Shown here one piece after another: positions 1-18,957 of a stretch of DNA of 24,000 nucleotides. The translations under genes and the position numbers were made by a program. The first letter of the stretch is position 1; every line of letters starts with the position of its first letter. The DNA comes from Alphaproteobacteria bacterium (GTDB taxonomy: Bacteria; Pseudomonadota; Alphaproteobacteria; TMED109). The notes beneath the pieces are model-generated. The model made no database searches. It was not told the origin of the DNA and worked only from the letters and a program-made list of their open reading frames with translations. The stretch spans positions 1 through 24,000 of the forward strand of contig JAQWLZ010000005.1 of NCBI GenBank assembly GCA_029247025.1, given 5' to 3'.

Positions 1-113
1 CGAGACTAGATATCCCTTGAGAGTCGTGGAAGACTACCACGTTGATAGGCCAGGTGTGGAAGCGCAGTAATGTGTGAAGCTAACTGGTACTAATAACTCG
101 ATCGGCTTTAGTT
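1..113 (+). rRNA. rrl: 23S rRNA, 3'-terminal fragment (gene continues upstream of the window)
   Basis: Carries the conserved LSU 3' end (GTTGATAGGCCAGGTGTGGAAGCGCAGTAATGTGTGAAGCTAACTGGTACTAATAACTCGATCGGCTT), colinear with the E. coli 23S terminus as I recall it. The 3' boundary is approximate. Confidence 0.85.
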
Positions 114-181
114 CAACCCATGTACAGTAATTACTCTGTATGTTTGGCAAGTATGTATATTAACTTAACGGTATTAAGATG

Positions 182-298
182 ACTTGGTGATTATAGCGAG
201 GGGGCTGCACCCGATCCCATTCCGAACTCGGTAGTGAAAATCCTCAGCGCCGATGGTACTTCATCTTAAGGTGTGGAAGAGTAGGTCGTTGCCAGGTC
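182..298 (+). rRNA. rrf: 5S rRNA
   Basis: About 117 nt with 5S hallmarks (CCCGATCCCATTCCGAACTCGG, GCGCCGATGGTACT, GAGAGTAGGTCGTTGCCAGGTC-like). The 5' CTTGGTG pairs with the 3' GCCAGGT as helix I. The ends are within a few nt. Confidence 0.9.
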
Positions 299-364
299 TT
301 CTTAATACCGTTAGTATTAACTTCTTATGCAATTATTAGTTTATTTAGGAATTAAACTTATTAA

Positions 365-441
<77 letters not shown>

Positions 442-1437: not shown

Positions 1438-1914
1438 ATGTATATTTACTTTTTAAAAATTATTTTTATCTATTTAATAATAAATTTCAGTTTTGTAAAT
1501 TTATTAAAATCGCAAGACTTAACTAGACAAGAGCCTATTGAAAAAATAGTTTACTTCAAAGGAGTTTCAGGAGAATCTCATTATTATGAACCAAATGAAT
1601 TAGTATTTGAAACTGGTAAATTGTATAAATTAAAATTATTAAATAATAGTGATTCTAAACATTATTTTTCATCAGGTTCTTTTTCTAAATCTATTTTTAC
1701 AAGAAAAATATAAGTAAATTTTGAGGGTAAGAAATTAGCCGAGGTAAAAGGTATTATTAATGAGGTTGAAGTATGGCCAAATCATGAAGTTGAATGGTGG
1801 TTTGTGCCCATTAAAACGGGTCGATTTGAAGATTTATATTGTAGAGTTAAAGATATGAAAAATGGATTAAAACATAGTGAAATGGGTATGCAGGGTACTA
1901 TAATTATTAATTAA
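1438..1914 (+). pseudogene. Secreted type-1-copper cupredoxin interrupted by one in-frame TAA (1711-1713)
   Basis: ORF 1438-1713 encodes a signal peptide plus the N-terminal half of a cupredoxin (YEPNELVFETGKLYKLKLLNNSDSKHYF). The same frame continues after the TAA for 66 more codons to TAA at 1912-1914. That part encodes the C-terminal half with Cys/His/Met ligands (FEDLYCRVKDMKNGLKHSEMGMQGTIIIN). The second half has no start codon of its own. Confidence 0.65.
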
Positions 1915-2012: not shown

Positions 2013-2402
2013 ATGACATCTGAAATTTTTTATTTAGTTTTAAGTACAGGTTTATGTCTAATTTTATGGCTACCTTATTTATTAGAAAGAATTTTTAATC
2101 AAGGTTTAATAGATACTGCAGGTTATCCAGAAAAAATTGCAGCGCCTGCTAAGTGGGCACAAAGGTCAAAATTAGCACATAGCAATATGGTAGAAAATTT
2201 ACCTCTTTTTGCAATTTTAATTATATGTCTAAATATTTTAGAAATATCTAATTCAAATACATTATTAGCAGCTAGCTTATTCTTTTATGCAAGAATTATT
2301 CATGCAGTGGTATATACATTAGGTATACCATGGGTAAGAACTTTAGCATTCGTAGCATCATGGTTAGCAAATATTATTTTATTTATAAATATTATTTTAT
2401 AA
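2013..2402 (+). CDS. MAPEG-family membrane protein (membrane glutathione S-transferase-like)
   Basis: 129 aa with about 4 TM segments and the MAPEG signature RSKLAHSNMVENLPLFAILI (compare R.H.N..EN.P.F). AGGAG lies 7 nt upstream of the ATG. Confidence 0.7.
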   Translation: MTSEIFYLVLSTGLCLILWLPYLLERIFNQGLIDTAGYPEKIAAPAKWAQRSKLAHSNMVENLPLFAILIICLNILEISNSNTLLAASLFFYARIIHAVVYTLGIPWVRTLAFVASWLANIILFINIIL

Positions 2403-2442
2403 TTCATATACACTTTAATCTTGTTAAGAGATTAGTCATATA

Positions 2443-2784
2443 ATGTTTTCAATTTCTTTTCTTATTAGTATAATTAGAATAGCTACATTTGTAATATTTG
2501 CTTTTCTGCTTGAAAAAATATTTTATAATAGAAATTTAAATTCAGAACAAAAAAAATTATATAACTATAATAGCCGAAATAATATTAGTTCATATTTAAT
2601 TATAGGACTTTCAGTATCCACTATTTTTAATATTACTGAAGATTCTTATATTTATAGAATTAATAGTTTAATGGCAATATATGGGCCATGGCTTTTTATA
2701 TTAACTGGAGTATTAATACTTATAAAAAATTTAAAGTATAATATTAGAGTAAGGCAAAAGATTTTTGAAAATAAAATAGATTAA
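2443..2784 (+). CDS. Hypothetical small membrane protein (about 3 TM)
   Basis: Only an ORF with hydrophobic segments, on the same strand between the MAPEG gene and pmoC. No family recognised. Confidence 0.35.
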   Translation: MFSISFLISIIRIATFVIFAFLLEKIFYNRNLNSEQKKLYNYNSRNNISSYLIIGLSVSTIFNITEDSYIYRINSLMAIYGPWLFILTGVLILIKNLKYNIRVRQKIFENKID

Positions 2785-2908
2785 ATTTTTCATTTAATAA
2801 TTAAATATAAATTTTACATATTAATTAGTTGGTTTCCTAAAAATAAATAAGTTACGGTTTTTAGATTAATTTTTTTAATCTTATGTTTGAATATATTGGG
2901 AGAAAAAC

Positions 2909-3766
2909 ATGGCTTTTATAGATAATATAATACATGGAAAGGGTTTAAAAAAGTCTGTGAATAGTGAAAAGTATTCTAATGATAAATTACCTTGGTATAC
3001 TAAAACAACGGTATTTAAATACGGAAATTTTGGAATATTTATGTTTGGTATTATTGTAGTTGCTGCATTGGTAGCTGGCGCTAGAATTTATCAGGGATTA
3101 TATGGATTTGAGCATGGTCTAGATTCAATGTCACAAGGATTCCAAGATTATTGGATGACTCTTGTTAAAGCAGAGTTAATAGGTATATTTTCATTTAATG
3201 TGGTGCTTTGGTTATATCTTTGGTACTCGAGAGAAAGAGATATGGATAATGTAAAACCCGAAGTTGAATTAAAAAGATATATTAATTTAGTCCTTTGGAT
3301 ATTGTCATATACATTTATAGTTTACTGGACTACTAGTTATTTTGCGTATGCCGATGGTGCCTGGCATCAAACAGTTTTAAGAGATACCAGCTTTACTCCA
3401 AGTCATAATATTTTATTCTATGGCTGTATTCCATTATATTTAACATTTGGAGTAGGAGGTTTTTTGTATGCAATGACAAGACTGCCTTCCTTTGGAAGAG
3501 CCATATCTATTGCTTATACTTTTGCTGTCCTAGGACCTGCTCTTATCCTTCCTAATTTAGGTTTTAATGAATGGGGACATGCATATTGGATGACAGAAGA
3601 AATATTTTCCCATCCACTTCATTGGGGCTTTGTAGTTTTAGGTTGGAATGCTCTAGCTATAGGTGGCGTTCTAATGCAGATTGTTATTGGAATGTCTAAA
3701 TCATTTAAAAAAATAAATTCTAAATTTGCTGATAATTCAAATTCGGAATTTACTGAAAATCTATAA
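2909..3766 (+). CDS. pmoC: Copper membrane monooxygenase subunit C (PmoC/AmoC family)
   Basis: 285 aa polytopic protein. ADGAWHQTVLRDTSFTPSHNILFYG closely matches the PmoC core (..WHQ..RDT.FTPSH..FY). D149/H153/H166 and N220/H224/H238 align with M. capsulatus PmoC D156/H160/H173 and N227/H231/H245 at a constant offset of 7. RBS is GGGAG. Confidence 0.93.
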   Translation: MAFIDNIIHGKGLKKSVNSEKYSNDKLPWYTKTTVFKYGNFGIFMFGIIVVAALVAGARIYQGLYGFEHGLDSMSQGFQDYWMTLVKAELIGIFSFNVVLWLYLWYSRERDMDNVKPEVELKRYINLVLWILSYTFIVYWTTSYFAYADGAWHQTVLRDTSFTPSHNILFYGCIPLYLTFGVGGFLYAMTRLPSFGRAISIAYTFAVLGPALILPNLGFNEWGHAYWMTEEIFSHPLHWGFVVLGWNALAIGGVLMQIVIGMSKSFKKINSKFADNSNSEFTENL

Positions 3767-3780
3767 TTATAAAATTTATA

Positions 3781-3812
3781 ACACTCCATTAAATAATCAT
3801 TTAATGGAGTGT
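3781..3812 (+). promoter_or_regulatory. Perfect 14-bp stem / 4-nt loop hairpin in the pmoC-pmoA spacer
   Basis: ACACTCCATTAAAT-aatc-ATTTAATGGAGTGT. It starts 15 nt after the pmoC stop and ends 22 nt before the pmoA ATG. It is followed by CTATAAATTT, only a weak U-tract. Confidence 0.6.
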
Positions 3813-3834
3813 CTATAAATTTGGGGGTAGAAGT

Positions 3835-4668
3835 ATGAGTAAATCTGAATCTAGAAGTTTTTTTGGTAAAATTTTCAGAATGAGGTCTGAAGATAGAGAG
3901 ATTCTTAAAATAGTAGGACTGAATAAAGAGCAAGCGGGTTTAGCCAGATATTTTGATTTTTTAGTTGTAGCGGCTGCTTTTTTATTATTTTGCGGTGCAT
4001 TTCACCTGCATGTTATGTTGTCTGCTGGTGACTGGGATATGTTTATAGATTGGAAAGATAGGCAATACTGGCCTTTAATTATTCCGATTGATACAATTAT
4101 GTTTCCGGCCGCTGTTCAAGCAGCTTTTTGGTATTATTTTAGACTTCCAATAGGAGCTACTTTATGCGGTGTTTGTCTTTTAACATCGGTATGGATTGGA
4201 ACATATAGTTATTGGCATTTATGGACTATGTTTCCTATAGTTTTAAATGTACCATCTATAATTATAGCAGGATGTATTTTACTAGATGTAATTTTACTTA
4301 TTTTTAGAAGATGGATATTTGTTGCATGTATAGGAGCTCCATTATTTGCTTTAACTTTTTATCCTAGTAATATGGCGGCTTTAACGGGTTATTATGTTCC
4401 AGTTGAACATTTAGGGTCCATGGCATCAATGGCTGATGTTATTGGCTATACTTTTCCTAGATCTGCAACACCTGAATATATTAGAATTATTGAAACAGGT
4501 ACTTTGAGAACATTTGAGGGTACTTCAGTATGGGTTTCAGGAGTATTTGCTGCTTTTGTGTGCATATTTTTATATATGCTTTGGTGGCAGATTGGAATGG
4601 CTTTTTCTACAGTTAAAACTTGGTCACAATCTCCTAAACTTAAAAAATATTTGGGATTTAAGGGATAG
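3835..4668 (+). CDS. pmoA: Copper membrane monooxygenase subunit A (PmoA/AmoA family)
   Basis: 277 aa with long colinear similarity to PmoA as I recall it: SAGDWDMFIDWKDRQYW, MFPAAVQAAFW, RLPIGATLC, YVPVEH, TPEYIRIIETGTLRTFEG. RBS is GGGGG. Confidence 0.95.
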   Translation: MSKSESRSFFGKIFRMRSEDREILKIVGLNKEQAGLARYFDFLVVAAAFLLFCGAFHLHVMLSAGDWDMFIDWKDRQYWPLIIPIDTIMFPAAVQAAFWYYFRLPIGATLCGVCLLTSVWIGTYSYWHLWTMFPIVLNVPSIIIAGCILLDVILLIFRRWIFVACIGAPLFALTFYPSNMAALTGYYVPVEHLGSMASMADVIGYTFPRSATPEYIRIIETGTLRTFEGTSVWVSGVFAAFVCIFLYMLWWQIGMAFSTVKTWSQSPKLKKYLGFKG

Positions 4669-4671
4669 CAA

Positions 4672-5961
4672 ATGAAAATTAATTATACAAAATTATTAAA
4701 AATATTTTTAATATCAATATTTTATTTTGTTATTGATATGGTAGTGGCATATGCACATGGCGAAAAAGCTATGGAACCATATTTTAGAACAAGGACTGTT
4801 ATGTTTTATGATGTCACTTGGTCTACAGATAATGTAAAAGTAGGAGAGAATGTAACTATAGAGGGTAAATTTAGATTACATAGTGATTGGCCACAAGCAG
4901 TAGATGACCCTGACGTAATATATGTAAATCAAAGTATACCAGGTCCAGTATTTGCAAAAATTGAATCTTACTTAAATGGAGTTCCTGCACGACAATCTTT
5001 TAGAGATATGGAAGTTGGTAAAGATTACCATTACAAGATGGTGCTTCAAGGGAGAGTTCCTGGAAACCATCATGTGCACCCTGGAATAGCAATTAAAGGC
5101 TCTGGAACAATTATTGGTCCAGGACAGTTTATTAAGGTGTCAGGTTCACAAAAAGATTTTAAATTTCCTGTAACTACGATGGATGGAGTATTAATTGAAG
5201 ATTTAGAAACATATGCACTAGCAGATGTATTTAAATGGCATTCTACGCTAGCAATTCTGGGAATTTTTTGGCTACTTTGGTGGGTTTGGAGGCCACTATT
5301 AATTCCTAGATATCAAGCATTAAAGCAAGGACGAGAAGATTTATTAATAACTAGACTAGATTTAACAGTAGGAATTTTATTAGGAGTATTTGTTTTTGTT
5401 GCCATTGTTTATAATTATAATGTTCAGGCTAATAAATATCCTATAACAGTTCCTTTACAGACTAGTAGAATGTATACAGATCCTTTACCTGTTGCTGATC
5501 CACAAATTAAAATTAATGTCAGTCGTGCAGAATATGATATTCCAGGAAGAACTATGCGTATGTGGGTTGAAGTAAAAAACAATGGAGATAATAAAGTACG
5601 TTTAGGTGAGTTAACAACGGCTAATTTAAGGTTTATAAATAAATCTTTCGGTCATGCTATGAATAATGTAACTGCAAATTATCCATCAGAACATATGGCA
5701 GATGGTGGGTTAGAAATAGATAAGGATAAGTATATAAACCCAGGAGAAAGTCATAAAATGTTCATTACTGCTCAGGATGCAAGATGGGAAACCGAACGTC
5801 TTACAGCATTTTTAACGGACGTTGATGCCAGAGTAGGTGCATTATTGTTTTTTTATGATGAAGAAGGTAATAGAAAGATACTTGATGTAGCGTCATCAAT
5901 ATTACCAGTATTTACAGATGATGATGGAACTGGTCCAAGTTATCAAAGGATTGGAAGGTAG
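4672..5961 (+). CDS. pmoB: Copper membrane monooxygenase subunit B (PmoB/AmoB family)
   Basis: 429 aa. A signal peptide ends AYA|HGEKAMEPYFRTRTV (compare HGEKSQAAFMRMRT in PmoB). An H-V-H pair sits in PGNHHVHPG..GPGQFIKVSG. Two central TM helices separate two cupredoxin-like halves. It starts 3 nt after the pmoA stop. Confidence 0.93.
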   Translation: MKINYTKLLKIFLISIFYFVIDMVVAYAHGEKAMEPYFRTRTVMFYDVTWSTDNVKVGENVTIEGKFRLHSDWPQAVDDPDVIYVNQSIPGPVFAKIESYLNGVPARQSFRDMEVGKDYHYKMVLQGRVPGNHHVHPGIAIKGSGTIIGPGQFIKVSGSQKDFKFPVTTMDGVLIEDLETYALADVFKWHSTLAILGIFWLLWWVWRPLLIPRYQALKQGREDLLITRLDLTVGILLGVFVFVAIVYNYNVQANKYPITVPLQTSRMYTDPLPVADPQIKINVSRAEYDIPGRTMRMWVEVKNNGDNKVRLGELTTANLRFINKSFGHAMNNVTANYPSEHMADGGLEIDKDKYINPGESHKMFITAQDARWETERLTAFLTDVDARVGALLFFYDEEGNRKILDVASSILPVFTDDDGTGPSYQRIGR

Positions 5962-5962
5962 C

Positions 5963-6457
5963 GTGCTAAATTTAAAAAAATCAAGATTTCTTTATTTTAT
6001 AATTATAAGCATCTTAGGTTTATTATTTACATTTACTAGTAACGCACATACTTACAAGAAAATGGATGTTGAAATTATTCATCCTTGGTGTGTAGCTACT
6101 TTATCGGGCGGTAATTCAAATGCGTATATTACTATTTCTAATGATTCTAATAAAGACGTAGAATTAATAGGAATTAGTTCTGATTTTATTCAACATATAA
6201 TGATTATGAAAAATGGTAAATCTATAGAAAAAATTTCTATTTCTGCAGATGGTGGAATAAGAGGCGAAGATGATTTTTCAATTATGTTTCATGGCTCAAA
6301 AAAAGATTTAGTAAGTGGAGAAAATATTCCAGCAATTTTAAAATTTTCATCAGGTATGACAATTGATATTAAGTTTGTTATAGGTGAAAATACTACTCTT
6401 GATGAAAAAGAAAATACAGAAAACAAACAAGAGCATCATGATCATAGTAACCACTAA
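5963..6457 (+). CDS. PCu(A)C-like periplasmic copper chaperone (DUF461) with a His-rich C-terminal tail
   Basis: Family layout: IIHPWCVAT..NAYITISNDSNKDVELIGISS..QHIMIMKNG...IMFHGSKKDLVSGENIPAILKFSSGMTIDIKFVI, with tail EHHDHSNH. I prefer the GTG at 5963 (GGAAGG upstream, 1 nt after the pmoB stop, directly preceding the signal peptide) over the track's ATG at 5918 inside pmoB. Confidence 0.7.
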   Translation: MLNLKKSRFLYFIIISILGLLFTFTSNAHTYKKMDVEIIHPWCVATLSGGNSNAYITISNDSNKDVELIGISSDFIQHIMIMKNGKSIEKISISADGGIRGEDDFSIMFHGSKKDLVSGENIPAILKFSSGMTIDIKFVIGENTTLDEKENTENKQEHHDHSNH

Positions 6458-7028
6458 TAAATTGCACTTATATTTAAAGTTTTTTTTATTATATTCTTTT
6501 TTATTAGTAATTTTAATTCCTAAAAGTTTTGCCCATGGAGGTTTATCTTTAGATGAAGATTATTGTGTATTAACAGTCGGTAAATATGAAATGCATTTTA
6601 GCGGCTACCAACCAGAAAATAATGGTCCTAAAGAATTTTGCGAAGATATTCCTGAGACAGGAAATACAATTGTGGTATTAGATTTTATGGATGATGAATT
6701 ACGTTCGCTCCCCGTTGAAGTAAGAATAATTCTTGATACGGAAGAAAATAATGAGGATTTAGAAAGTATTACTGTATATAAAAAAGATTATAAAATATAT
6801 AAAAATGGAACAATAAGTTTAAGAAAAAATTTTGAAAACAAAGGAAAATTCATAGGTTATGTAACAGTAAAGGATGAAAATAATTTCATAATATCTGAAT
6901 TTCCATTTTCAGTAGGCATAGAAAGAAAAAGTTCATCTTATATTTACTTTATCATATTGGCTCTAATTACTGGAGCATCATTATTTTATTTTGGTAATAA
7001 GATTAGAAATAAATCGTTGAATGCGTAA
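6438..7028 (+). CDS. Orphan periplasmic protein with a C-terminal TM anchor and predicted N-terminal His (PmoD/AmoD-like position and architecture; homology unverified)
   Basis: Signal peptide ...ILIPKSFA|HGGLSLDEDYCVLTVGKYEMHFSGYQPENNGPKEFCEDIP, then an acidic beta-rich domain and a C-terminal helix YIYFIILALITGASLFYFG. The ATG at 6438 is chosen because it directly precedes the signal peptide. It overlaps the upstream stop by 20 nt. Confidence 0.6.
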   Translation: MIIVTTNKLHLYLKFFLLYSFLLVILIPKSFAHGGLSLDEDYCVLTVGKYEMHFSGYQPENNGPKEFCEDIPETGNTIVVLDFMDDELRSLPVEVRIILDTEENNEDLESITVYKKDYKIYKNGTISLRKNFENKGKFIGYVTVKDENNFIISEFPFSVGIERKSSSYIYFIILALITGASLFYFGNKIRNKSLNA

Positions 7029-7386
7029 TCTTTTAAAATATGTTTTATTAATATTTATATTTGAATATAATTATGCTTGTGCACACGCAGTATTAGAGTT
7101 TTCTGAACCAGCAAGGAGAGCTATATTATATAGAGCTCCTGAGCAAGTTGTTTTAACTTTTAATGAACCTGTAGAAATAGAATTTTCTAAAATACTATTA
7201 ATGAATAATGAAGATAAAATAATAGCTTCAAGTAGTAATCTGAAAAATATATATGATAATAATTCAATAGGTATGCAAATTCCTAAGTTAACTTCAGGAA
7301 TATATTTTATTCAATTTCAAGTTCTTTCAATTGATGGACATAAAGTAAAAGGCAGATATAAATTTACTATTAAGGATAGTAATTAA
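7021..7386 (+). CDS. copC: CopC-family periplasmic copper-binding protein
   Basis: 121 aa. The signal peptide ends ACA|HAVLEFSEPA. VVLTFNEPVE..FSKI, GIYFIQFQVLSIDGHKVKGRYKFTI matches the CopC/YobA pattern (HA.L..S.P...V.L.F.E.v...G.Y.v.w.v.S.DGH...G.f.F.v). It overlaps the upstream gene by 8 nt. Confidence 0.85.
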   Translation: MRNLLKYVLLIFIFEYNYACAHAVLEFSEPARRAILYRAPEQVVLTFNEPVEIEFSKILLMNNEDKIIASSSNLKNIYDNNSIGMQIPKLTSGIYFIQFQVLSIDGHKVKGRYKFTIKDSN

Positions 7387-7391
7387 TTCAA

Positions 7392-9338
7392 ATGGTTGAA
7401 ATACTTCTAAGTATCTCAAAATTTTTTCAAAGTATAATTTTAACATTTACACTTGGGTTTTATTTTGTAAATTATTACATAATAAAAAAATTTAAATATA
7501 GTATTAGTATTATTAATAGAATTACTCTGTATCTAATAATAGTATTAATAATATCAATTATTATACTTTTTCTTCAAGTTTATTATCGTTATGAAGATAT
7601 AAATGAATTACTTAATTTAAACTATATTATTACAATCTTATTTAAAACAAGGTTTGGCGGAATATGGTTAATAAAATTTTTTATTTTTATATTATTAATT
7701 ATAATATGTAGAATAAGAAATATTAACAATTTCTTAATAATATTTTTATTATCTTTGTCTTTAGGCTTAGTAACTCTGACAGGTCATGCTATTTCATCTG
7801 ATATGGTTTATGTAACTATTCCAGTTAATTTTATTCATATTGTTTCTGTTAGCTTATGGGTTGGAGCTTTACCATACCTCTTTTTTAATATATCAAAAGA
7901 TAATAATTCAGTAATTTACCAAGTTAAAAGATTTTCATCTTTTGCTTCTTATAATATGGTTTTTATATTATTTTCTGGTTTCTTATTATCATTAATAAAC
8001 TTAGATTATAGTTTTGCTGCATTATTAGGCACTGATTATGGTCAAGTTATAATTTTAAAATTATTATTTGTATCAATAGCATTACTTAGCGCTCTTTATA
8101 TAAGAATGTCTTTATTAAATGGAAAAAAATTTTTAAAATTTAATTTTTCTATTAAAAATATATTAAAGTTAGAGATTATTTCTGTTGTATTTATTTTTGG
8201 TATTGGAATTTTTCTTTCACAAACTATACCAGGAGCACACGATGAAATAGAGTGGCCATTAAATTTTAGATTATCTATAGATGTTGCAATGGAAGATACT
8301 ATAAATAAAAATAGTATTTTATTCCTATTAATTTTTATTAGTTTGTTTCTTGGTATAATTTTTATGGATTTTATTTTAAATAAAAAATTTAGTAAATCTT
8401 TCTTTTATTCAATTTCTATTATATCTATTTCAGGATTAGGTATAGTTTACTTATTATCTATTGAAGCTTACCCTGTAACCTATAAGCAACCGTCTGTCCC
8501 TTACTCGGCAATATCTGTTTATAATGGAAAATTATTATATAGAAATAATTGCGTACAATGTCACGGCTATTCTGGTCAAGGCGATGGGATAATAGTAAAT
8601 GAAGATTTAGCTATTTTACCTGCAAATTTAACTGAACCACATACTGCCTATCATACTGCTGGAGATATTTATTGGTGGTTAACAAACGGAATGCCTCCAA
8701 GCATAATGCCAGGATTTGAGAGTATATTGAATGAAGATAATAGGTGGGATTTAATAAATTTTTTAAGAACTTTATCTTTAAGTTATGAGGCAAGAATACT
8801 AAATAATAAAATTGTTTATAAAAAGCCTTGGTTACCAGCAGTAGATTTTGACTTTGTAACTCTAAATGGAAAAACAGGAAGGTTATCTCAGTATAGAGGT
8901 AAAAAAGCAATAATACTTATCATAATGGATAATATAAACAATAATGAAAATAGAATTAATAAAATTATTCAGGCGTATAATGACATAAAAGAATTAGGTG
9001 CAGAGGTATTATTGGTTTCTAGTAATAATAATTTTAAGCAAGAAAATTTCAATAAAAAATACAAAAATATTCCTTTTCCTATAATATATGAAGGTTCTGA
9101 AGAAATATTAAACACCTATAATTTATTTAGAAGAACTATATTAAATCCTGATAAAAAAGATAAAAATGAAAGCATAGAATATATCGAGTTTTTAATTGAT
9201 CAGTATGGTTATATTAGAACTAGATGGAAGCAAGATGAAATTAATGATGAAAATAAATCACTTAATTATTTATCAGCAATACAAGAATTAGAAAAAGAAG
9301 GTAAAATATTGGATTATCCTGATGAGCACGTTCATTAA
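7392..9338 (+). CDS. copD: CopD-family membrane protein fused to a class-I c-type cytochrome domain and a Cys-less thioredoxin/AhpC-TSA-like domain
   Basis: The N-terminal ~360 aa is polytopic with CopD motifs (LTGHAISSD; IHIVSVSLWVGALPYLF). Then comes the heme motif NNCVQCHGYSGQGDG with a distal GMPPSIMPGF. After that, VDFDFVTLNGKTGRLSQYRGKKAIILIIMD...GAEVLLVSSNN...FPIIYE looks like a redoxin fold lacking the CxxC/peroxidatic Cys. Confidence 0.8.
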   Translation: MVEILLSISKFFQSIILTFTLGFYFVNYYIIKKFKYSISIINRITLYLIIVLIISIIILFLQVYYRYEDINELLNLNYIITILFKTRFGGIWLIKFFIFILLIIICRIRNINNFLIIFLLSLSLGLVTLTGHAISSDMVYVTIPVNFIHIVSVSLWVGALPYLFFNISKDNNSVIYQVKRFSSFASYNMVFILFSGFLLSLINLDYSFAALLGTDYGQVIILKLLFVSIALLSALYIRMSLLNGKKFLKFNFSIKNILKLEIISVVFIFGIGIFLSQTIPGAHDEIEWPLNFRLSIDVAMEDTINKNSILFLLIFISLFLGIIFMDFILNKKFSKSFFYSISIISISGLGIVYLLSIEAYPVTYKQPSVPYSAISVYNGKLLYRNNCVQCHGYSGQGDGIIVNEDLAILPANLTEPHTAYHTAGDIYWWLTNGMPPSIMPGFESILNEDNRWDLINFLRTLSLSYEARILNNKIVYKKPWLPAVDFDFVTLNGKTGRLSQYRGKKAIILIIMDNINNNENRINKIIQAYNDIKELGAEVLLVSSNNNFKQENFNKKYKNIPFPIIYEGSEEILNTYNLFRRTILNPDKKDKNESIEYIEFLIDQYGYIRTRWKQDEINDENKSLNYLSAIQELEKEGKILDYPDEHVH

Positions 9339-10170
9339 AAGATACCAGATAATTATTTATTGTTCTTTAGTATTTACTTTATGGATATTAATAAGTTTTA
9401 GTTTTATTTTTTGTAGTTTTACTGATTATTGTATTATAAAAAAAATAGATAATAGTATTACTTTGCAGGAGCATATACCCAAATTAACTTGTGATAATAT
9501 AATGGCACAAGGTATAAAGAATATTTATACAAAAAGTAAATTAAAGGTATTAGTAATTCCTCCTAAAAATCATTTTGCTGATAAAAAATATTCTGCAATT
9601 ATAGTTCTTCCACCAGCAGGAAAAACTGTAAGAAAATCAGAGGGTTTTTATGAAGGGTTAACTTCATTAGCTAATAATAGTGGTTTCATAATTGCTTATA
9701 GCGATTACCTTCCTCTAAATGAAACTAATTTATCTAAAATATCAGAGGTAAAAAATACTCTGAGTGAAAATTATTGTATTAATAAAAATGATATAACTAT
9801 GTTAGGACATTCTGATGGAGCTACAAATGCCGCAATTATTTCTTATAGAGATATTGGAATAAAAATAAAGAATCTTATTATTTCTGCTAATGGGATTAAT
9901 AAAAAAGCTTTAGAAAGTGAAATATGTCCTAAAAAATTTTTTTCCCTTATGATACTGCATAGTGTAAATGATGCTTTTTTTAGAGATTTTGGCAGAGATA
10001 ATATTGAATGGATTTCGCTTTGCAGTAACTGCAAGAATACTTATGAAAAGCTAGATAATGGGTGTATGAAAATAAAAGATTGCGATAGAAAAATTGTATA
10101 TTGTGAAGGTAAAGAGTCACATAATGAATGGCCAAAAAGAAATAATATTATTATTGATTTTTTAAAGTAA
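9322..10170 (+). CDS. Alpha/beta-hydrolase esterase, PHB-depolymerase/LpqC-like family, N-terminally anchored
   Basis: N-terminal TM/signal segment, then IIVLPPAGKT...GFIIAYSDY, a nucleophile elbow MLGHSDGA (GxSxG), LHSVNDAFF, and a Cys-rich C-terminus ending ..VYCEGKESHNEWP as in the COG3509-type esterases I recall. The ATG overlaps the copD 3' end by 17 nt. Confidence 0.6.
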   Translation: MSTFIKRYQIIIYCSLVFTLWILISFSFIFCSFTDYCIIKKIDNSITLQEHIPKLTCDNIMAQGIKNIYTKSKLKVLVIPPKNHFADKKYSAIIVLPPAGKTVRKSEGFYEGLTSLANNSGFIIAYSDYLPLNETNLSKISEVKNTLSENYCINKNDITMLGHSDGATNAAIISYRDIGIKIKNLIISANGINKKALESEICPKKFFSLMILHSVNDAFFRDFGRDNIEWISLCSNCKNTYEKLDNGCMKIKDCDRKIVYCEGKESHNEWPKRNNIIIDFLK

Positions 10171-15987: not shown

Positions 15988-17079
15988 ATGAACCCTATAT
16001 TCTTATATATGATAGGATTGATGCGCCATAATTTTTTTTCTTTTGTATGCTATTTTTTCTACTTTCTTACTTATAGTAGTAATATATTAGCTGAAAAAAT
16101 AGACTTAATAGAGAGTGAAGATATAACTATAATTGCTTTTGGTTCTTGCAATGACCAATCTTTATCACAAAATTTTTGGAAAAACATACAAGCTTATAAG
16201 CCTGATGTTTTTCTTCAAATTGGAGATAATGTTTATGCCAAAAATAAAAATTTAATTAGCTTAACTGATGCCTATAAAGATCTTAAAAATAATATTTATT
16301 ATCAAAATTTTTCATTAAATACTGAGATTATAGGAATATGGGATGATCATGACTATGGGAAGAATGATGGTGGAAAAAACTATAAGGATAAATACGAATC
16401 TAAAAATATATTTTTAAATTTTTTTGAAGTAAACAAAAACGATGAACGTTATTTTCGTGAAGGCTTATATAAAGAATATATTTTAAATTATAAAGATAAA
16501 TTTATACAAATAATTATTCTAGACACTCGTTTTTTTAAATCTGATTTTAAAGCTACAAATAATATAAATACTAAAGGTAAAGAAAGATATATTCCTGACT
16601 TCAGTGAAGATAAAACTATTCTCGGAAATAAACAATGGGAATGGTTTGAAGAACAATTGAAGAAAAAAGTTGATTTAAGAATTATTGTTTCTTCTTTTCA
16701 AGTATTACCAAAAGACCATGGTTGGGAAAAATGGGGAAATTTTCCTTTAGAACAAAGAAAATTATATTCTTTAATTAATAATACTAACCACCCTTATACT
16801 TTAATAATTTCTGGAGATAGACATGTTGGGGCTCTATATAAAAAAGAGTTGAGTAATAATATTAGTATTTATGAACTAACATCTAGCTCTTTAAATCAAC
16901 CTTTAAAATTTAAAGTTGAAGAGTACGATAGTATGCAGATAGGAGATTTAGTCGTTTCAGAAAACTTTGGCTTAATATCAATTGATTGGGCTCAAAGTAT
17001 AATATCTTTGCAATTGAAATCTCCTTATTTAACAAAAACAAATTCCTTGTTAAGGAAAGATATATTATTTAATAATTAA
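15988..17079 (+). CDS. PhoD-like metallophosphatase (alkaline phosphatase D family)
   Basis: N-terminal hydrophobic leader, then IIAFGSCNDQ, FLQIGDNVYA, GIWDDHDYGKNDGG and IISGDRHVG (calcineurin-like/PhoD motifs). Confidence 0.75.
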   Translation: MNPIFLYMIGLMRHNFFSFVCYFFYFLTYSSNILAEKIDLIESEDITIIAFGSCNDQSLSQNFWKNIQAYKPDVFLQIGDNVYAKNKNLISLTDAYKDLKNNIYYQNFSLNTEIIGIWDDHDYGKNDGGKNYKDKYESKNIFLNFFEVNKNDERYFREGLYKEYILNYKDKFIQIIILDTRFFKSDFKATNNINTKGKERYIPDFSEDKTILGNKQWEWFEEQLKKKVDLRIIVSSFQVLPKDHGWEKWGNFPLEQRKLYSLINNTNHPYTLIISGDRHVGALYKKELSNNISIYELTSSSLNQPLKFKVEEYDSMQIGDLVVSENFGLISIDWAQSIISLQLKSPYLTKTNSLLRKDILFNN

Positions 17080-17097
17080 ATATTAAGGGATTTAATA

Positions 17098-18957
17098 ATG
17101 AAAACAATAAAGCCTAAATATAAAATTTCTGATTTTGAATTACTAGTAACTAAATCTATATCTAGGAGAAACTTATTAAAAAACGGAATATCTTTTGGGG
17201 TATCAAGTTTTATATTAGGTACGGCGTCTAAATCTGTTCTAGCAGATAATAAAAAAACTAGCTTTGACTTTAACCAAGTAAAATCTAATACATTAGATAC
17301 AGTTACTTTACCAGATAACTATATGTGGCAAACAGTTATTAGGTGGGGAGACCCAATGTGGACTGAAGGAGAGGAATTTAATAGCTTTTCTAGAGGGAAT
17401 GCTAATTCTCAAAAATTATCTTTTGGAGATAATAATGATGGAATGCACTTATTTAATCATAATGGGCACAATATATTAGTTGTTAATAATGAATATACTA
17501 ATCAAAAAATTATTTATGGGAACAGAGACAGTAAAAGCGCAGAAAATTTAGATGACATTAATAAAGGTAAAGCTGCACATGGTATAAGCATAGTAGAACT
17601 TTCATTTAATAAAAAATGGGAGGTTGTAAAAGATTCTAATTTTAATAGAAGAATTACTGCAGATACTCCTATGGAACTATCTGGATATGCAAGAGGGCAT
17701 GAATTATTAAAAACATCTTTTGATAAAAATGGAACAAAGTGTCTAGGTACATGGAATAACTGTGGTAATGGGAAGACTCCTTGGGGAACCTATCTTGCAT
17801 GTGAAGAAAATTTTAATGGATATTTTTCAAGTAATGATAAAAAGACAAAGTTATCTAATGAATTTATAAGATATGGAATAAGTGCAAATGATTGGGGATA
17901 TAATTGGGCTAATTATGATGAGCGTTTTGATATTTCTCTTCATCCTAATGAGTCTAATAGATTTGGATATATAGTTGAAATAGATCCTCTTAACCCCAAT
18001 AGTATTCCAAAAAAATTGACTAGTTTAGGACGCTTTAAACATGAAAATGCAGAACTTGTAATTAATAAAGATAGTAGAGTAGTTGTATATATGGGTGATG
18101 ATGAGAGAGGAGAGTTTTTATATAAATTTGTTTCAGAAAATAAATATAAAAAAAATGGAGATAATAGAAACTTATTAAATAATGGAAAATTATTTGTAGC
18201 TAAATTTCATGATCATAAGAGGGGAGAGTGGATTGAACTAAATCCAAAAACAACTGGTTTTAAAACACAGGCAGAAATATGTATTTATACAAGAATTGCA
18301 GCATCAAATGTAGGTGCAACAACAATGGATCGTCCTGAATGGGTAGCTTCAAACCCTAATAAGGCAGAAGTTTATTGTTCTTTAACAAATAATAGAAATA
18401 GAGGTATTAAACCTAATAAGGGAGGTGACCTTACACCTTTATTTGGGCCAAATAAAAGAAAAAATAATATATATGGACAGATTATTAAATGGAATCCTAA
18501 TAATAATGACCATAGTTCCAATTTATTTGAATGGAGTTTATTTGCTATGGCTGGAAACCCGGAAATTCATAACAATAATTATGCCGGAACAGAAAATATA
18601 GATAAAGACAATATGTTCAACTCTCCAGATGGGTTAGGCTTTAATAAAGAAGGAGTATTACTTATACAAACAGATGGAAGCTATTCTAATGAAGGAGAAT
18701 ATATTGGAATGGGTAATAATCAAATGCTATGTGGTAATCCTATAACCGGAGAAATAAAAAGATTTTTAGTAGGGCCAAAAGAATGTGAAGTAACCGGTAT
18801 AACATGGAGTAAAGATTACAAAACACTATTTGTAGGTTTGCAACATCCAGGAGAGAAGGGAAATAGTAATTTTCCTGGAGGAAAAAATTCAGTACCAAGA
18901 TCATCTGTAATAGCAATTAGTAAAAAAGATGGTTCTAAAATAACATTCATATCTTGA
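17098..18957 (+). CDS. phoX: PhoX-family alkaline phosphatase (DUF839), Tat-exported
   Basis: Twin-arginine leader SRRNLLKNGISFGV, then FGDNNDGM, LGRFKHENA, MDRPEWV and FNSPDGLGF (beta-propeller PhoX motifs). RBS AAGGGA lies 18 nt after the previous stop. Confidence 0.85.
   Translation: MKTIKPKYKISDFELLVTKSISRRNLLKNGISFGVSSFILGTASKSVLADNKKTSFDFNQVKSNTLDTVTLPDNYMWQTVIRWGDPMWTEGEEFNSFSRGNANSQKLSFGDNNDGMHLFNHNGHNILVVNNEYTNQKIIYGNRDSKSAENLDDINKGKAAHGISIVELSFNKKWEVVKDSNFNRRITADTPMELSGYARGHELLKTSFDKNGTKCLGTWNNCGNGKTPWGTYLACEENFNGYFSSNDKKTKLSNEFIRYGISANDWGYNWANYDERFDISLHPNESNRFGYIVEIDPLNPNSIPKKLTSLGRFKHENAELVINKDSRVVVYMGDDERGEFLYKFVSENKYKKNGDNRNLLNNGKLFVAKFHDHKRGEWIELNPKTTGFKTQAEICIYTRIAASNVGATTMDRPEWVASNPNKAEVYCSLTNNRNRGIKPNKGGDLTPLFGPNKRKNNIYGQIIKWNPNNNDHSSNLFEWSLFAMAGNPEIHNNNYAGTENIDKDNMFNSPDGLGFNKEGVLLIQTDGSYSNEGEYIGMGNNQMLCGNPITGEIKRFLVGPKECEVTGITWSKDYKTLFVGLQHPGEKGNSNFPGGKNSVPRSSVIAISKKDGSKITFIS

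What the first reader, a model, noticed from the sequence alone, without database searches (positions are those of the whole stretch)
2909..10170. Eight-gene, translationally coupled cluster joining the monooxygenase to a full periplasmic copper-handling module
Gene junctions after pmoC are, in order:
- 68 nt (pmoC-pmoA, containing the hairpin);
- 3 nt (pmoA-pmoB);
- 1 nt (pmoB to the PCu(A)C-like gene, with the GTG start);
- a 20-nt overlap (to the orphan anchored protein);
- an 8-nt overlap (to CopC);
- 5 nt (to the CopD-cytochrome c-Trx fusion);
- a 17-nt overlap (to the esterase).

Ammonia oxidisers are known for amoCAB(ED)-copCD, and methanotrophs for pmoCAB-pmoD. Here a PCu(A)C-type chaperone is inserted and the CopD is extended by redox domains. 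The cluster therefore combines parts from different known operon types. A cell with very few regulators hard-wiring copper acquisition to the enzyme fits copper-poor open-ocean conditions.
Basis: partly seen in the sequence, partly recalled or inferred. Interest (0 to 1): 0.75.

Follow-up and report, generated by a model that had tools for sequence, protein, structure and literature searches.

The report
Extended copper monooxygenase operon, marine alphaproteobacterium
This is a tightly packed eight-gene operon for a copper membrane monooxygenase and its copper-handling helpers, and the same helper set is already known from nitrifiers and methanotrophs and is widespread in soil and freshwater relatives, so it is largely ordinary.

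Summary

The interpretation mostly does not hold:
- The "orphan anchored protein" is a PmoD/AmoD-family protein. It matches PDB 6CPD at E 4.6e-16 and carries the AmoD-type Cx8MH motif.
- The PCu(A)C gene is the methanotroph PmoF type, with an HX10H histidine brace at the mature N-terminus.
- The CopD-cytochrome c-Trx-fold fusion is the ordinary CopD of Nitrosospira and comammox Nitrospira amo clusters. Its Trx-like domain has no cysteine in any member aligned.
- The "esterase" is a real periplasmic alpha/beta-hydrolase with a Ser-Asp-His triad (AlphaFold2 model, pLDDT 94).

Among the 80 most similar CuMMO loci from GTDB species genomes:
- 67 have PmoD.
- 45 have the CopD-cytochrome c fusion.
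- 45 have the esterase.
- 7 have the PmoD, CopD-cytochrome c fusion, esterase and PCuAC families beside xmoCAB (Bradyrhizobium, Burkholderiales).

Only the position of PCuAC, between pmoB and pmoD, is particular to this marine sub-lineage. Sister lineages place it last. The copper-poor-ocean reading is not supported.

What remains of interest is the host, a roughly 28% GC marine alphaproteobacterium whose CuMMO has an unknown substrate. The small esterase family linked to CuMMO loci and a marine-only upstream MAPEG gene are also worth following.

The parts
2785..2908 (+). AT-rich 124-nt spacer upstream of pmoC. It is the likely promoter and 5' UTR region, with GGGAG 7 nt before the ATG.
   Evidence: Sequence. 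Promoter-like matches are no more frequent than in shuffled sequence, so the promoter is inferred, not shown.
2909..3766 (+). xmoC (PmoC/AmoC-like subunit).
   Evidence: PF04896 at 6.6e-81. AmoC_BACT scores 315.7 bits, just under its cutoff of 319. The stretches DGAWHQ...TPSH and NEWGHA...PLHWGF, which carry the metal-site Asp/His and Asn/His ligands as recalled from published pMMO structures, align identically or near-identically with solved AMO chains.
3767..3834 (+). pmoC-pmoA spacer with a long stem-loop (15-bp perfect core, 4-nt loop; about 23 pairs in the MFE fold), followed by the pmoA SD-like GGGGG.
   Evidence: dG -23.4 kcal/mol, z -7.0. A stem-loop of different sequence sits at the same place in L091, L093, L085 and L001.
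3835..4668 (+). xmoA (PmoA/AmoA-like subunit).
   Evidence: PF02461 at 1.1e-74. About 200 bits to both AMO and pMMO PDB chains. The nearest non-marine relatives are 54-64% identical.
4672..5961 (+). xmoB (PmoB/AmoB-like subunit), with signal peptide, N-terminal His after cleavage (AYA|HGEKA) and an HVH motif.
   Evidence: PF04744 at 2.2e-134. AmoB_BACT scores 495 bits against a cutoff of 336. PDB hits. Sequence.
5963..6457 (+). PmoF-type PCu(A)C copper chaperone. The signal peptide is followed by a mature N-terminus HTYKKMDVEIIH (HX10H histidine brace) and a His-rich C-terminal tail.
   Evidence: PF04314 at 2.2e-11. N-terminal match to the M. trichosporium PCuAC structures 6p1g/6p1f. The HX10H class is described in PMC13006917. 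The motif is conserved in L085, L091 and L093.
6438..7028 (+). It has a signal peptide, a cupredoxin-like periplasmic domain with CVLTVGKYEMH...C (Cx8MH...C) and a C-terminal TM helix.
   Evidence: PDB 6CPD (PmoD) at E 4.6e-16 over residues 42-160. 643 homologues, including Nitrosospira and Nitrospira. Motif classes in PMC6189053. Motif census.
7021..7386 (+). CopC periplasmic Cu(II)-binding protein, with mature N-terminal His (ACA|HAVLE) and a DGH motif.
   Evidence: PF04234 at 4.1e-18 and NF033814 at 2.7e-21. Sequence.
7392..9338 (+). CopD membrane protein fused to a periplasmic c-type cytochrome domain (CVQCH) and a cysteine-free thioredoxin-fold domain that ends in the conserved PDEHVH.
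   Evidence: PF05425, PF00034/PF13442 and PF00578. The same architecture occurs in all 61 homologues and in Nitrosospira NpAV and comammox Nitrospira. The alignment shows no Cys in the Trx-like part and a conserved (D/E)HVH terminus.
9322..10170 (+). N-terminally anchored periplasmic alpha/beta-hydrolase (esterase-like), with GHSDG Ser164, Asp217, His267 and eight conserved cysteines.
   Evidence: No Pfam or PDB hit for the single sequence. The family profile hits LC-Est1C at 1.7e-11, feruloyl esterases and a PHB depolymerase. Invariant residues are listed. AF2 model pLDDT 94.2. Foldseek top hits are feruloyl and acetyl-xylan esterases and PHB depolymerase.
2013..2784 (+). MAPEG-family membrane protein plus a 113-aa TM protein. 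They form a conserved upstream block in the marine lineages only; membership of the operon is uncertain.
   Evidence: PF01124 at 1.1e-19. The block is present upstream of pmoC in L085, L086, L091 and L093 and in 0 of 80 GTDB CuMMO loci.

Best explanation
The locus is an extended copper membrane monooxygenase (CuMMO) operon of the type known from beta-proteobacterial ammonia oxidisers and alpha-proteobacterial methanotrophs.

Gene order:
- xmoCAB encodes the enzyme.
- Then come a PmoF-type PCuAC (His-brace Cu chaperone), an AmoD-type PmoD (membrane-anchored cupredoxin-like Cu protein), CopC (periplasmic Cu(II) binder) and CopD (inner-membrane Cu transporter).
- CopD carries its usual periplasmic cytochrome c domain and a cysteine-free Trx-fold domain ending in an HxH motif.
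- Last is a membrane-anchored periplasmic serine esterase.

Inferred working model:
- One promoter upstream of pmoC drives the whole unit.
- The stem-loop after pmoC modulates read-through or transcript stability.
- The downstream genes mostly lack their own Shine-Dalgarno sequence and overlap or abut, so they are translated by coupling.
- The accessory proteins capture periplasmic copper (CopC), move and/or reduce it (CopD-cytochrome c), and hand it to the enzyme's copper sites (PCuAC, PmoD).
- The esterase's role is unknown. My best guess is lipid or ester processing in the membrane and periplasm around the enzyme.

What is shown: gene identities, conserved motifs, and conserved synteny across phyla-level distances.

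What is inferred: co-transcription, translational coupling, direction of copper flow, the esterase's role and the enzyme's substrate.

The tight packing reflects a streamlined genome plus an ancestral operon. It is not a new combination.
For: - Gene identities.
- Published precedents: pmoCAB-pmoD-copC-copD-pCuAC in M. trichosporium OB3b and amoCABED-copCD in beta-AOB (PMC6189053; PMC3764937). HX10H PCuACs of methanotrophs (PMC13006917). The CopD domain is implicated in copper uptake (PMC8424229).
- The same CopD+cytochrome c+AhpC/TSA architecture follows amoE-amoD-copC in Nitrosospira sp. NpAV (L090) and in comammox Nitrospira (L088).
- Census of the 80 nearest CuMMO loci from GTDB species genomes: PmoD 67, CopD always with cytochrome c 45, esterase 45. 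PmoD+CopC+CopD+Est occur together in 30. Seven loci hold PmoD, the CopD-cytochrome c fusion, Est and PCuAC together.
- Marine relatives L085, L091 and L093 carry the same eight genes with similarly tight junctions. The copC-copD gap is 5 nt in all three. The copD-est overlap is 17 nt in L085 and 11 nt in L091 and L093.
- GC3 of the cluster genes (0.09-0.20) matches the flanking housekeeping genes, so the operon is compositionally native.
- No internal terminator-like signal above background.
- SD-like motifs precede pmoC, pmoA, pmoB and the PCuAC GTG, but are weak or absent before pmoD, copC, copD and est.
Against: - No expression data exist. Internal promoters cannot be excluded in 72% A+T DNA, where promoter-like hits equal the shuffled expectation.
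- The direction of CopCD transport (import or export) and the roles of PmoD and PCuAC are unproven even in model organisms.
- The AmoD-type Cx8MH motif class does not carry the Cx7MxH ligand set to which PMC6189053 confines CuA-site formation, so its copper chemistry is unknown.
- The esterase has no evident link to copper.
- Distant members of the esterase family are not always next to a CuMMO.
Confidence: 0.85

Rival explanations
1. One reading: a novel chimeric operon that merges parts of different known operon types (amoCAB-copCD, pmoCAB-pmoD, plus an inserted PCuAC and a redox-extended CopD). It would have been assembled as an adaptation of a regulator-poor cell to copper-poor open-ocean water.
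For: - The PCuAC gene sits between pmoB and pmoD only in the window's own population (L081-L084) and in one related marine lineage (L091).
- Junctions are tighter here than in Nitrosospira and Nitrospira.
- No regulator gene lies beside the cluster in the window.
Against: - Every component is already part of extended pmo/amo operons.
- PmoD, the CopD-cytochrome c fusion, the esterase and PCuAC occur beside xmoCAB in soil Bradyrhizobium and in Burkholderiales MAGs, with PCuAC last. Marine sister lineages L085 and L093 have the same layout.
- The CopD fusion is the standard nitrifier form.
- The physical link between copper genes and the enzyme therefore predates colonisation of the open ocean.
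Confidence: 0.07
2. The accessory genes are primarily an electron-delivery path to the monooxygenase rather than a copper-supply chain. The cytochrome c domain on CopD and the cupredoxin-like PmoD would pass reducing equivalents to the enzyme's copper site.
For: - The cytochrome c domain with CxxCH and the conserved block LTEPHTA.HTAGD are present in every CopD found next to a CuMMO.
- PMC6189053 lists supplying reducing equivalents as one possible PmoD function.
- The physiological reductant of pMMO and AMO is unresolved (my own knowledge).
Against: - CopC, CopD and PCuAC homologues act in copper trafficking in many bacteria that lack any CuMMO (PMC8424229; PMC13006917).
- L092 carries copC-copD(cyt c)-PCuAC with no pmoCAB within 10 kb.
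- CuA-site formation is reported to be confined to Cx7MxH-type PmoDs, and this one is Cx8MH.
Confidence: 0.15
3. The cluster is several independent transcription units that are close together only because the genome is streamlined. The accessory genes would serve general copper homeostasis, for example cytochrome oxidase assembly, rather than the monooxygenase.
For: - Same-strand genes elsewhere in the window are also close, with gaps of 14, 18, 40 and 56 nt.
- A strong hairpin follows pmoC.
- copC-copD-PCuAC occurs without pmoCAB in L092.
- PCuAC classically serves CuA assembly in oxidases.
Against: - Synteny with xmoCAB is conserved across Alpha-, Beta- and Gammaproteobacteria of very different genome sizes and GC content.
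- Four junctions are overlaps, and three of the downstream starts lack an SD-like motif.
- PmoD homologues are reported only from genomes that contain a CuMMO (PMC6189053).
Confidence: 0.1

Closest known systems
Full pmo operon of Methylosinus trichosporium OB3b (pmoCAB-pmoD-copC-copD-pCuAC; Kenney 2016 and Fisher 2018, as summarised in PMC6189053)
   Same: The accessory gene families are the same: PmoD, CopC, CopD and a PCuAC of the His-brace (PmoF) kind. They lie directly downstream of xmoCAB on one strand.
   Different: - PCuAC is placed before pmoD instead of last.
- PmoD has the Cx8MH (AmoD-type) motif rather than the Cx7MxH CuA-forming motif.
- An alpha/beta-hydrolase gene follows copD.
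- The enzyme belongs to a different, uncharacterised CuMMO clade. I could not check whether the OB3b CopD carries the cytochrome c and Trx-like domains.
amoCABED-copCD clusters of beta-proteobacterial ammonia oxidisers (e.g. Nitrosospira sp. NpAV) and the amoE/D-copCD cluster of comammox Nitrospira
   Same: - The PmoD is AmoD-type, about 50% identical.
- CopC is followed by a CopD of about 650-680 aa with the same CopD + cytochrome c + cysteine-free Trx-fold architecture. The PPP(D/G)(D/E)HVH end is seen in Nitrospira; the Nitrospira and Nitrosospira architectures are.
   Different: - There is a single PmoD paralogue, with no amoE.
- PCuAC and the esterase are present here.
- Junctions are much tighter.
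- No evidence exists that the host oxidises ammonia, and no hao gene lies in the window.
CuMMO clusters of unknown function in Bradyrhizobium spp. (including strain ERR11) and Solimonas aquatica, and those of alkane-utilising Burkholderiales (Khadka 2018, PMC6215863; Rochman 2020, from memory)
   Same: - These are the nearest sequence relatives of the enzyme, with PmoA 45-59% identical.
- They share the downstream order PmoD-CopC-CopD(cyt c)-esterase, with PCuAC present in seven loci.
   Different: - In those loci PCuAC is the last gene.
- Their hosts have high-GC, large genomes.
- None has the upstream MAPEG and small TM gene pair.

Membership tests
Copper membrane monooxygenase (xmoCAB) | Three subunit genes in C-A-B order that match the family models. 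| tested here: met
   PF04896, PF02461 and PF04744 at E 1e-74 to 1e-134. PDB AMO and pMMO chains match at E 1e-54 to 1e-97.
Copper membrane monooxygenase (xmoCAB) | Metal-ligand residues: PmoB N-terminal His plus HxH; PmoC Asp/His/His and Asn/His/His. | tested here: met
   PmoB shows AYA|HGEKA and HHVH. The PmoC stretches DGAWHQ..TPSH and NEWGHA..PLHW align with the same stretches of solved AMO chains. The ligand roles of these residues come from my own knowledge of published structures.
Bacterial ammonia monooxygenase (NCBIfam equivalogs AmoA/B/C_BACT) | Scores above the curated cutoffs for all three subunits, and a hydroxylamine-oxidising partner in the genome. | tested here: inconclusive
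   AmoB scores 495, above its cutoff of 336. AmoA scores 281.9, below 290, and AmoC scores 315.7, below 319. A non-nitrifier Methylibium MAG protein is also named AmoA by its source. PmoA and PmoB are about equidistant from AMO and pMMO structures, and PmoC is slightly closer to AMO. The presence of hao cannot be checked from the window.
PmoD/AmoD family | Signal peptide, periplasmic cupredoxin-like domain with two conserved Cys and a metal motif, and a C-terminal TM helix. | tested here: met
   6CPD at E 4.6e-16 over the whole periplasmic domain. The sequence shows ...SFA|HGG, CVLTVGKYEMH...C and a C-terminal hydrophobic helix. Cx8MH is the AmoD class.
PmoD/AmoD family | CuA-forming ligand set Cx7MxH. 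| tested here: not met
   A regular-expression search finds Cx8MH and not Cx7MxH. It is therefore a family member but not of the CuA-forming subclass.
Canonical PCu(A)C (Cu(I) chaperone) | Primary Cu(I) site HXnMX21/22HXM. | tested here: not met
   In the alignment to 9yah and 1x9l, the second His position is Ser (SIM instead of HxM). The motif definition comes from PMC13006917.
PmoF-type PCuAC of methanotrophs | PCuAC fold with an N-terminal HX10H histidine brace. | tested here: met
   PF04314 at 2.2e-11. The predicted mature N-terminus HTYKKMDVEIIH is conserved as H-x10-H in L085, L091 and L093 and aligns to HEYAVGKIKIEH of 6p1g. The signal-peptide cleavage site is predicted, not shown.
CopC | Periplasmic CopC domain with an N-terminal His and the D-x-H Cu(II) site. 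| tested here: met
   PF04234 at 4.1e-18. The sequence shows ACA|HAVLE... and ...IDGHKV. The ligand pattern comes from my own knowledge of Lawton 2016.
CopD | Polytopic CopD domain encoded next to copC. | tested here: met
   PF05425 at 6.2e-11 and NF033808 at 7.7e-19. The gene lies 5 nt after copC.
Thioredoxin/AhpC-TSA thiol-redox domain | Redox-active CxxC or a peroxidatic Cys. | tested here: not met
   No cysteine occurs after the cytochrome c domain in the window protein or in any of 17 aligned homologues, Nitrosospira and Nitrospira included. Only the fold is shared.
Alpha/beta-hydrolase serine esterases | GxSxG nucleophile elbow, Ser-Asp-His triad in that order, and the alpha/beta-hydrolase fold. 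| tested here: met
   GHSDG is present, and S164, D217 and H267 are invariant in 66 sequences. The profile matches PDB esterases at 1.7e-11. The model has pLDDT 94.2, and Foldseek matches feruloyl esterase and PHB depolymerase at about 1e-10. Activity and substrate were not testable.
Single polycistronic, translationally coupled operon | One transcript, with downstream translation dependent on upstream translation. | not testable with these tools
   The evidence is only indirect: one strand, gaps of 68 nt or less, four overlaps, no terminator-like signal above background, and weak or absent SD motifs before pmoD, copC, copD and est.

The most novel reading that the evidence does not exclude
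The operon layout may be the least interesting part. The evidence does not exclude a more novel reading with three elements.

First, the locus may mark an undescribed, globally distributed group of streamlined marine Alphaproteobacteria:
- GC is about 26-29%, and at least four deep lineages exist (window, L085, L091, L093).
- Close relatives occur in Tara Oceans data, and one is on a 1.12-Mb contig.
- Their chromosomally native CuMMO belongs to a clade with no characterised substrate, and may oxidise methane, ethylene or another small hydrocarbon, or ammonia, in surface seawater.

Second, the conserved periplasmic esterase may be an unrecognised accessory component of CuMMO systems. It belongs to a tiny family of 144 cluster representatives among 1.84 billion proteins and is found in 45 of the 80 related CuMMO loci.

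Third, the marine-only upstream MAPEG (membrane glutathione-transferase-like) gene may be another such component. A role in handling reactive oxidation products such as epoxides is possible.
Probability: 0.25. Interest if true: 0.65.

Novelty: new member of a known kind. Interest (0 to 1): 0.3.

Why it matters
As an operon it matters little. It confirms that joining PmoD, CopC, CopD and PCuAC to the enzyme genes is an old, widely conserved design, not an ocean-specific invention.

Three by-products could matter to specialists:
1. A compositionally native CuMMO sits in a very low-GC marine alphaproteobacterium whose close relatives occur in Tara Oceans data. Its substrate is unknown, which bears on who consumes methane, ethylene or other small hydrocarbons, or ammonia, in surface seawater.
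2. The CopD of nitrifier-type clusters always carries a cytochrome c domain and a cysteine-free Trx-fold domain ending in (D/E)HVH. This is a concrete handle on how copper is reduced and delivered.
3. A small, Pfam-less family of disulfide-rich periplasmic esterases travels with CuMMO operons. It may be a missing accessory factor for an enzyme family that is notoriously hard to reconstitute.

Tried and rejected
- **Orphan, single-sequence scans.** Pfam and NCBIfam gave nothing. The PDB sequence search and the homologue search resolved it.
- **Esterase, single-sequence scans.** Pfam and PDB gave nothing. A family profile and a structure model were needed.
- **Exact look-up of P0001.** It found no contig on record.
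- **Host species.** The GTDB genome scan did not return the window's own species (best match 59% PmoA identity), so the host could not be placed more finely. Relatives are labelled Alphaproteobacteria, Pelagibacterales or Rickettsiales bacterium.
- **Literature on a marine alphaproteobacterial CuMMO.** Searches found nothing relevant. TMED127/Methylaequorales was considered as host, but that paper never mentions a monooxygenase or methane.
- **Papers not held.** Fisher 2019 (PMC6827282) could not be read, so the HX10H statement is taken from PMC13006917. Rochman 2020 did not turn up in a search of the library and is cited from memory.
- **Metagenome scan with the wide esterase alignment.** It failed because the alignment had no conserved stretch to search with. 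The narrower alignment returned only 3 loci.
- **First re-census script.** It timed out. In the rerun, the third CopC HMM iteration drifted onto PmoD (57 to 133 hits), so CopC hits on PmoD ORFs were discarded.
- **Literature on a hydrolase in xmo operons.** The search found nothing.
- **AMO versus pMMO assignment.** I rejected it. Bit scores to solved AMO and pMMO chains are nearly equal for PmoA and PmoB, and only slightly favour AMO for PmoC.
- **Recent horizontal acquisition.** I rejected it on GC3.

Full report
**Observation.**
The window is about 28% G+C. Eight ORFs on the + strand occupy 2909-10170 exactly as described. I recomputed every junction and they match:
- 68-nt gap, pmoC to pmoA
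- 3-nt gap, pmoA to pmoB
- 1-nt gap, pmoB to the GTG at 5963
- 20-nt overlap, to the "orphan" ATG at 6438
- 8-nt overlap, to copC
- 5-nt gap, to copD
- 17-nt overlap, to the last gene

The GTG start of the fourth gene is an inference. Gene callers on identical metagenome contigs chose the ATG at 5918. The GTG is preceded by GGAAGG at a proper distance and leaves a classical signal peptide, while the ATG has no such motif.

The 68-nt pmoC-pmoA spacer folds into a long hairpin with a 15-bp perfect core: dG -23.4 kcal/mol, z -7.0. Inside the cluster, terminator-like and promoter-like matches are no more frequent than in shuffled sequence.

**What the genes are.**
Pfam and NCBIfam confirm AmoC, AMO, Monooxygenase_B, PCuAC, CopC and a CopD + cytochrome c + AhpC/TSA fusion. 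Two genes had no family hit.

*The "orphan anchored protein" (6438-7028).*
- It has 643 homologues, about 50% identical in Nitrospira, Nitrosospira sp. NpAV and Burkholderiales.
- It matches the solved PmoD structure 6CPD at E 4.6e-16 across the whole periplasmic domain.
- It has the family's signal peptide, two conserved cysteines and C-terminal helix.
- Its motif CVLTVGKYEMH is Cx8MH, the class that Fisher et al. 2018 equate with amoD. The Cx7MxH class corresponds to amoE and the alpha-methanotroph pmoD (PMC6189053; regular-expression check).

*The last gene (9322-10170).*
- It belongs to a well-conserved family with an invariant GHSDG serine, an Asp, a His and eight cysteines.
- A profile of the family hits PDB esterases: LC-Est1C at 1.7e-11, feruloyl esterases and a PHB depolymerase.
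- An AlphaFold2 model built on 66 sequences has pLDDT 94.2. It shows an N-terminal helix and an alpha/beta-hydrolase body.
- Foldseek returns feruloyl and acetyl-xylan esterases and PHB depolymerases.

**The PCuAC and CopD details.**
The predicted mature N-terminus of the PCuAC is HTYKKMDVEIIH, which is HX10H. The canonical Cu(I) site HXnMX21/22HXM is incomplete, because a Ser sits at the second His position. PMC13006917 describes exactly this class: PCuACs from methanotrophs that lack the primary site and use an HX10H histidine brace. The N-terminus aligns with the M. trichosporium structures 6p1g/6p1f. The motif and a His-rich tail are conserved in three other marine lineages.

The CopD fusion is not an innovation:
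- In cultured Nitrosospira sp. NpAV the genes run amoE-amoD-copC-copD, and that CopD is 683 aa with CopD, Cytochrom_C and AhpC-TSA hits.
- Comammox Nitrospira has the same architecture.
- All 61 homologues found share it.
- In an alignment of 18 members, no sequence has a cysteine after the CxxCH haem motif, so the Trx-like domain cannot be a thiol oxidoreductase.
- Sixteen of the 18 end in (D/E)HVH. The exceptions are the contig-truncated Nitrosospira sequence and the most distant hit, P0392.

**How common the arrangement is.**
A PmoA alignment retrieved the 80 most similar CuMMO loci among GTDB species genomes. I searched their six-frame ORFs with the window's proteins and iterated HMMs. Results:
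- PmoD-like in 67 of 80
- CopD in 45 of 80, never without the cytochrome c domain
- the esterase in 45 of 80
- PmoD+CopC+CopD+esterase together in 30 of 80, although many contigs end early
- PCuAC in 9 of 80, always as the last gene
- PmoD, the CopD-cytochrome c fusion, the esterase and PCuAC all present in 7 loci: four Bradyrhizobium species, including strain ERR11, and three Burkholderiales MAGs

The commonest layout is xmoCAB-pmoD-copC-copD-est.

Low-GC marine relatives tell the same story:
- L091 has the window's exact order.
- L085 and L093 have PCuAC last.
- The window is closest to L091 in every protein: PmoA 90%, CopD 56%, esterase 56%.
- PCuAC-last is therefore probably ancestral, and the move to behind pmoB is a rearrangement within one marine sub-lineage.
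- Junction tightness is also shared. The copC-copD gap is 5 nt in all three relatives. The copD-est overlap is 17 nt in L085 and 11 nt in L091 and L093.

**Comparison with what is published.**
PMC6189053 states that extended operons of alpha-methanotrophs and beta-AOB encode PmoD/AmoD, CopC, CopD and sometimes PCuAC. [quoted passage not shown] PMC3764937 notes copCD downstream of amoCAB in all other described beta-AOB. CuMMOs of unknown function in Bradyrhizobium ERR11 and Solimonas aquatica are mentioned in PMC6215863.

I found no paper in the searchable library that discusses three things: the hydrolase as part of these clusters, the cysteine-free Trx-like domain, or a CuMMO in streamlined marine Alphaproteobacteria. 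That is absence of evidence only.

**Mechanism.**
Shown: gene identities, motif conservation and deep synteny.

Inferred:
- One promoter lies in the 124-nt spacer before pmoC.
- The post-pmoC stem-loop acts as a partial terminator, processing site or stability element. A stem-loop is present at the same place in L091, L093, L085 and L001, but with unrelated sequences.
- Translational coupling serves pmoD, copC, copD and est, which overlap or abut and lack good SD motifs.
- Copper flows from CopC through CopD and its cytochrome c domain, and through PCuAC and PmoD, to the enzyme's copper sites.

The start codon of est lies inside the codons for CopD's conserved C-terminal Asp-Glu (GATGAG). The esterase's role is unknown.

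**The enzyme and host.**
PmoA and PmoB score almost equally against solved AMO and pMMO chains, and PmoC is slightly closer to AMO. AmoB passes the NCBIfam equivalog cutoff, while AmoA and AmoC fall just short. The substrate cannot be assigned.

The contig is an NCBI MAG labelled Alphaproteobacteria bacterium. Proteins more than 90% identical come from MAGs labelled Pelagibacterales or Rickettsiales bacterium and from Tara Oceans, and one lies on a 1.12-Mb contig.

The window begins with the end of a 23S-5S-tRNA-fMet unit. GC3 of the cluster genes equals that of the neighbouring housekeeping genes, so the operon is resident and not a recent import.

**Verdict.**
This is a new member of a known kind of extended CuMMO operon, with one local rearrangement. 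The operon finding itself is of low to moderate interest. The host lineage, the CuMMO-linked esterase family and the marine-only upstream MAPEG gene are the parts worth following.

Noticed in passing
window 1-441: The window starts with the 3' end of the 23S rRNA (1-114), a 5S rRNA (183-297) and tRNA-Met(CAT) (365-441). The monooxygenase cluster therefore lies about 2.5 kb downstream of an rrn operon.
   Followed up: partly
window 2013-2784; L085 8190-8974; L091 668-1476; L093 5059-5847: A MAPEG-family (membrane glutathione-transferase-like) gene plus a small TM protein precede pmoC in all four low-GC marine lineages. They are absent from all 80 non-marine CuMMO loci. This may hint at handling of reactive oxidation products such as epoxides.
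   Followed up: partly
window 3772-3821; L091 2550-2584; L093 6807-6839; L085 9940-9981: A stem-loop directly after pmoC is conserved in position but not in sequence across the marine lineages (dG -13 to -23 kcal/mol, z -2.6 to -7). A GC-rich one occupies the same place in a Rhodocyclaceae MAG (L001).
   Followed up: partly
window 8800-9338 (CopD C-terminal domain): The thioredoxin-fold domain of CopD contains no cysteine in any of 18 aligned members, nitrifiers included. Sixteen of the 18 end in a conserved (D/E)HVH, which may be a copper-binding tail.
   Followed up: partly
window 9322-10170; L099 9001-9927: The esterase family is very small, with 144 cluster representatives among 1.84 billion proteins. 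A 31%-identical member sits divergently next to another pmoCAB in L099. Two other members looked up (P0410 and P0474, 34% and 25% identical) showed no CuMMO in the DNA available; the P0410 contigs are only 3-4 kb.
   Followed up: partly
window 9322-9338: The est start codon is embedded in the codons for CopD's conserved C-terminal Asp-Glu (GATGAG). The same 17-nt overlap occurs in L085.
   Followed up: yes
L085 12274-12777; L093 9347-9634: In the two marine lineages with PCuAC last, PmoD is flagged as a Cx9H motif in the regular-expression census. In L085 the sequence is CILTLGTNKIH, where the Met of Cx8MH is replaced. The L093 gene as called is N-terminally short, so its motif was not read directly.
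   Followed up: no
L092 9630-12491: A related low-GC marine genome carries copC-copD(cyt c)-PCuAC with no pmoCAB within 10 kb. The copper module therefore also exists on its own.
   Followed up: no
L093 13691-15139: One marine relative has an HMA-domain (heavy-metal-associated) gene and a MerR-family regulator immediately downstream of the cluster. The window has no regulator there; acnB converges on it instead.
   Followed up: no
window 1438-1713: A short ORF (91 aa) has a hydrophobic N-terminus and a weak cupredoxin-like hit (PF13473, E 0.005, below cutoff). It could be a small copper protein, a gene remnant or chance.
   Followed up: no
window 15988-18957: Adjacent PhoD-like and PhoX phosphatase genes suggest adaptation to phosphate scarcity.
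   Followed up: no
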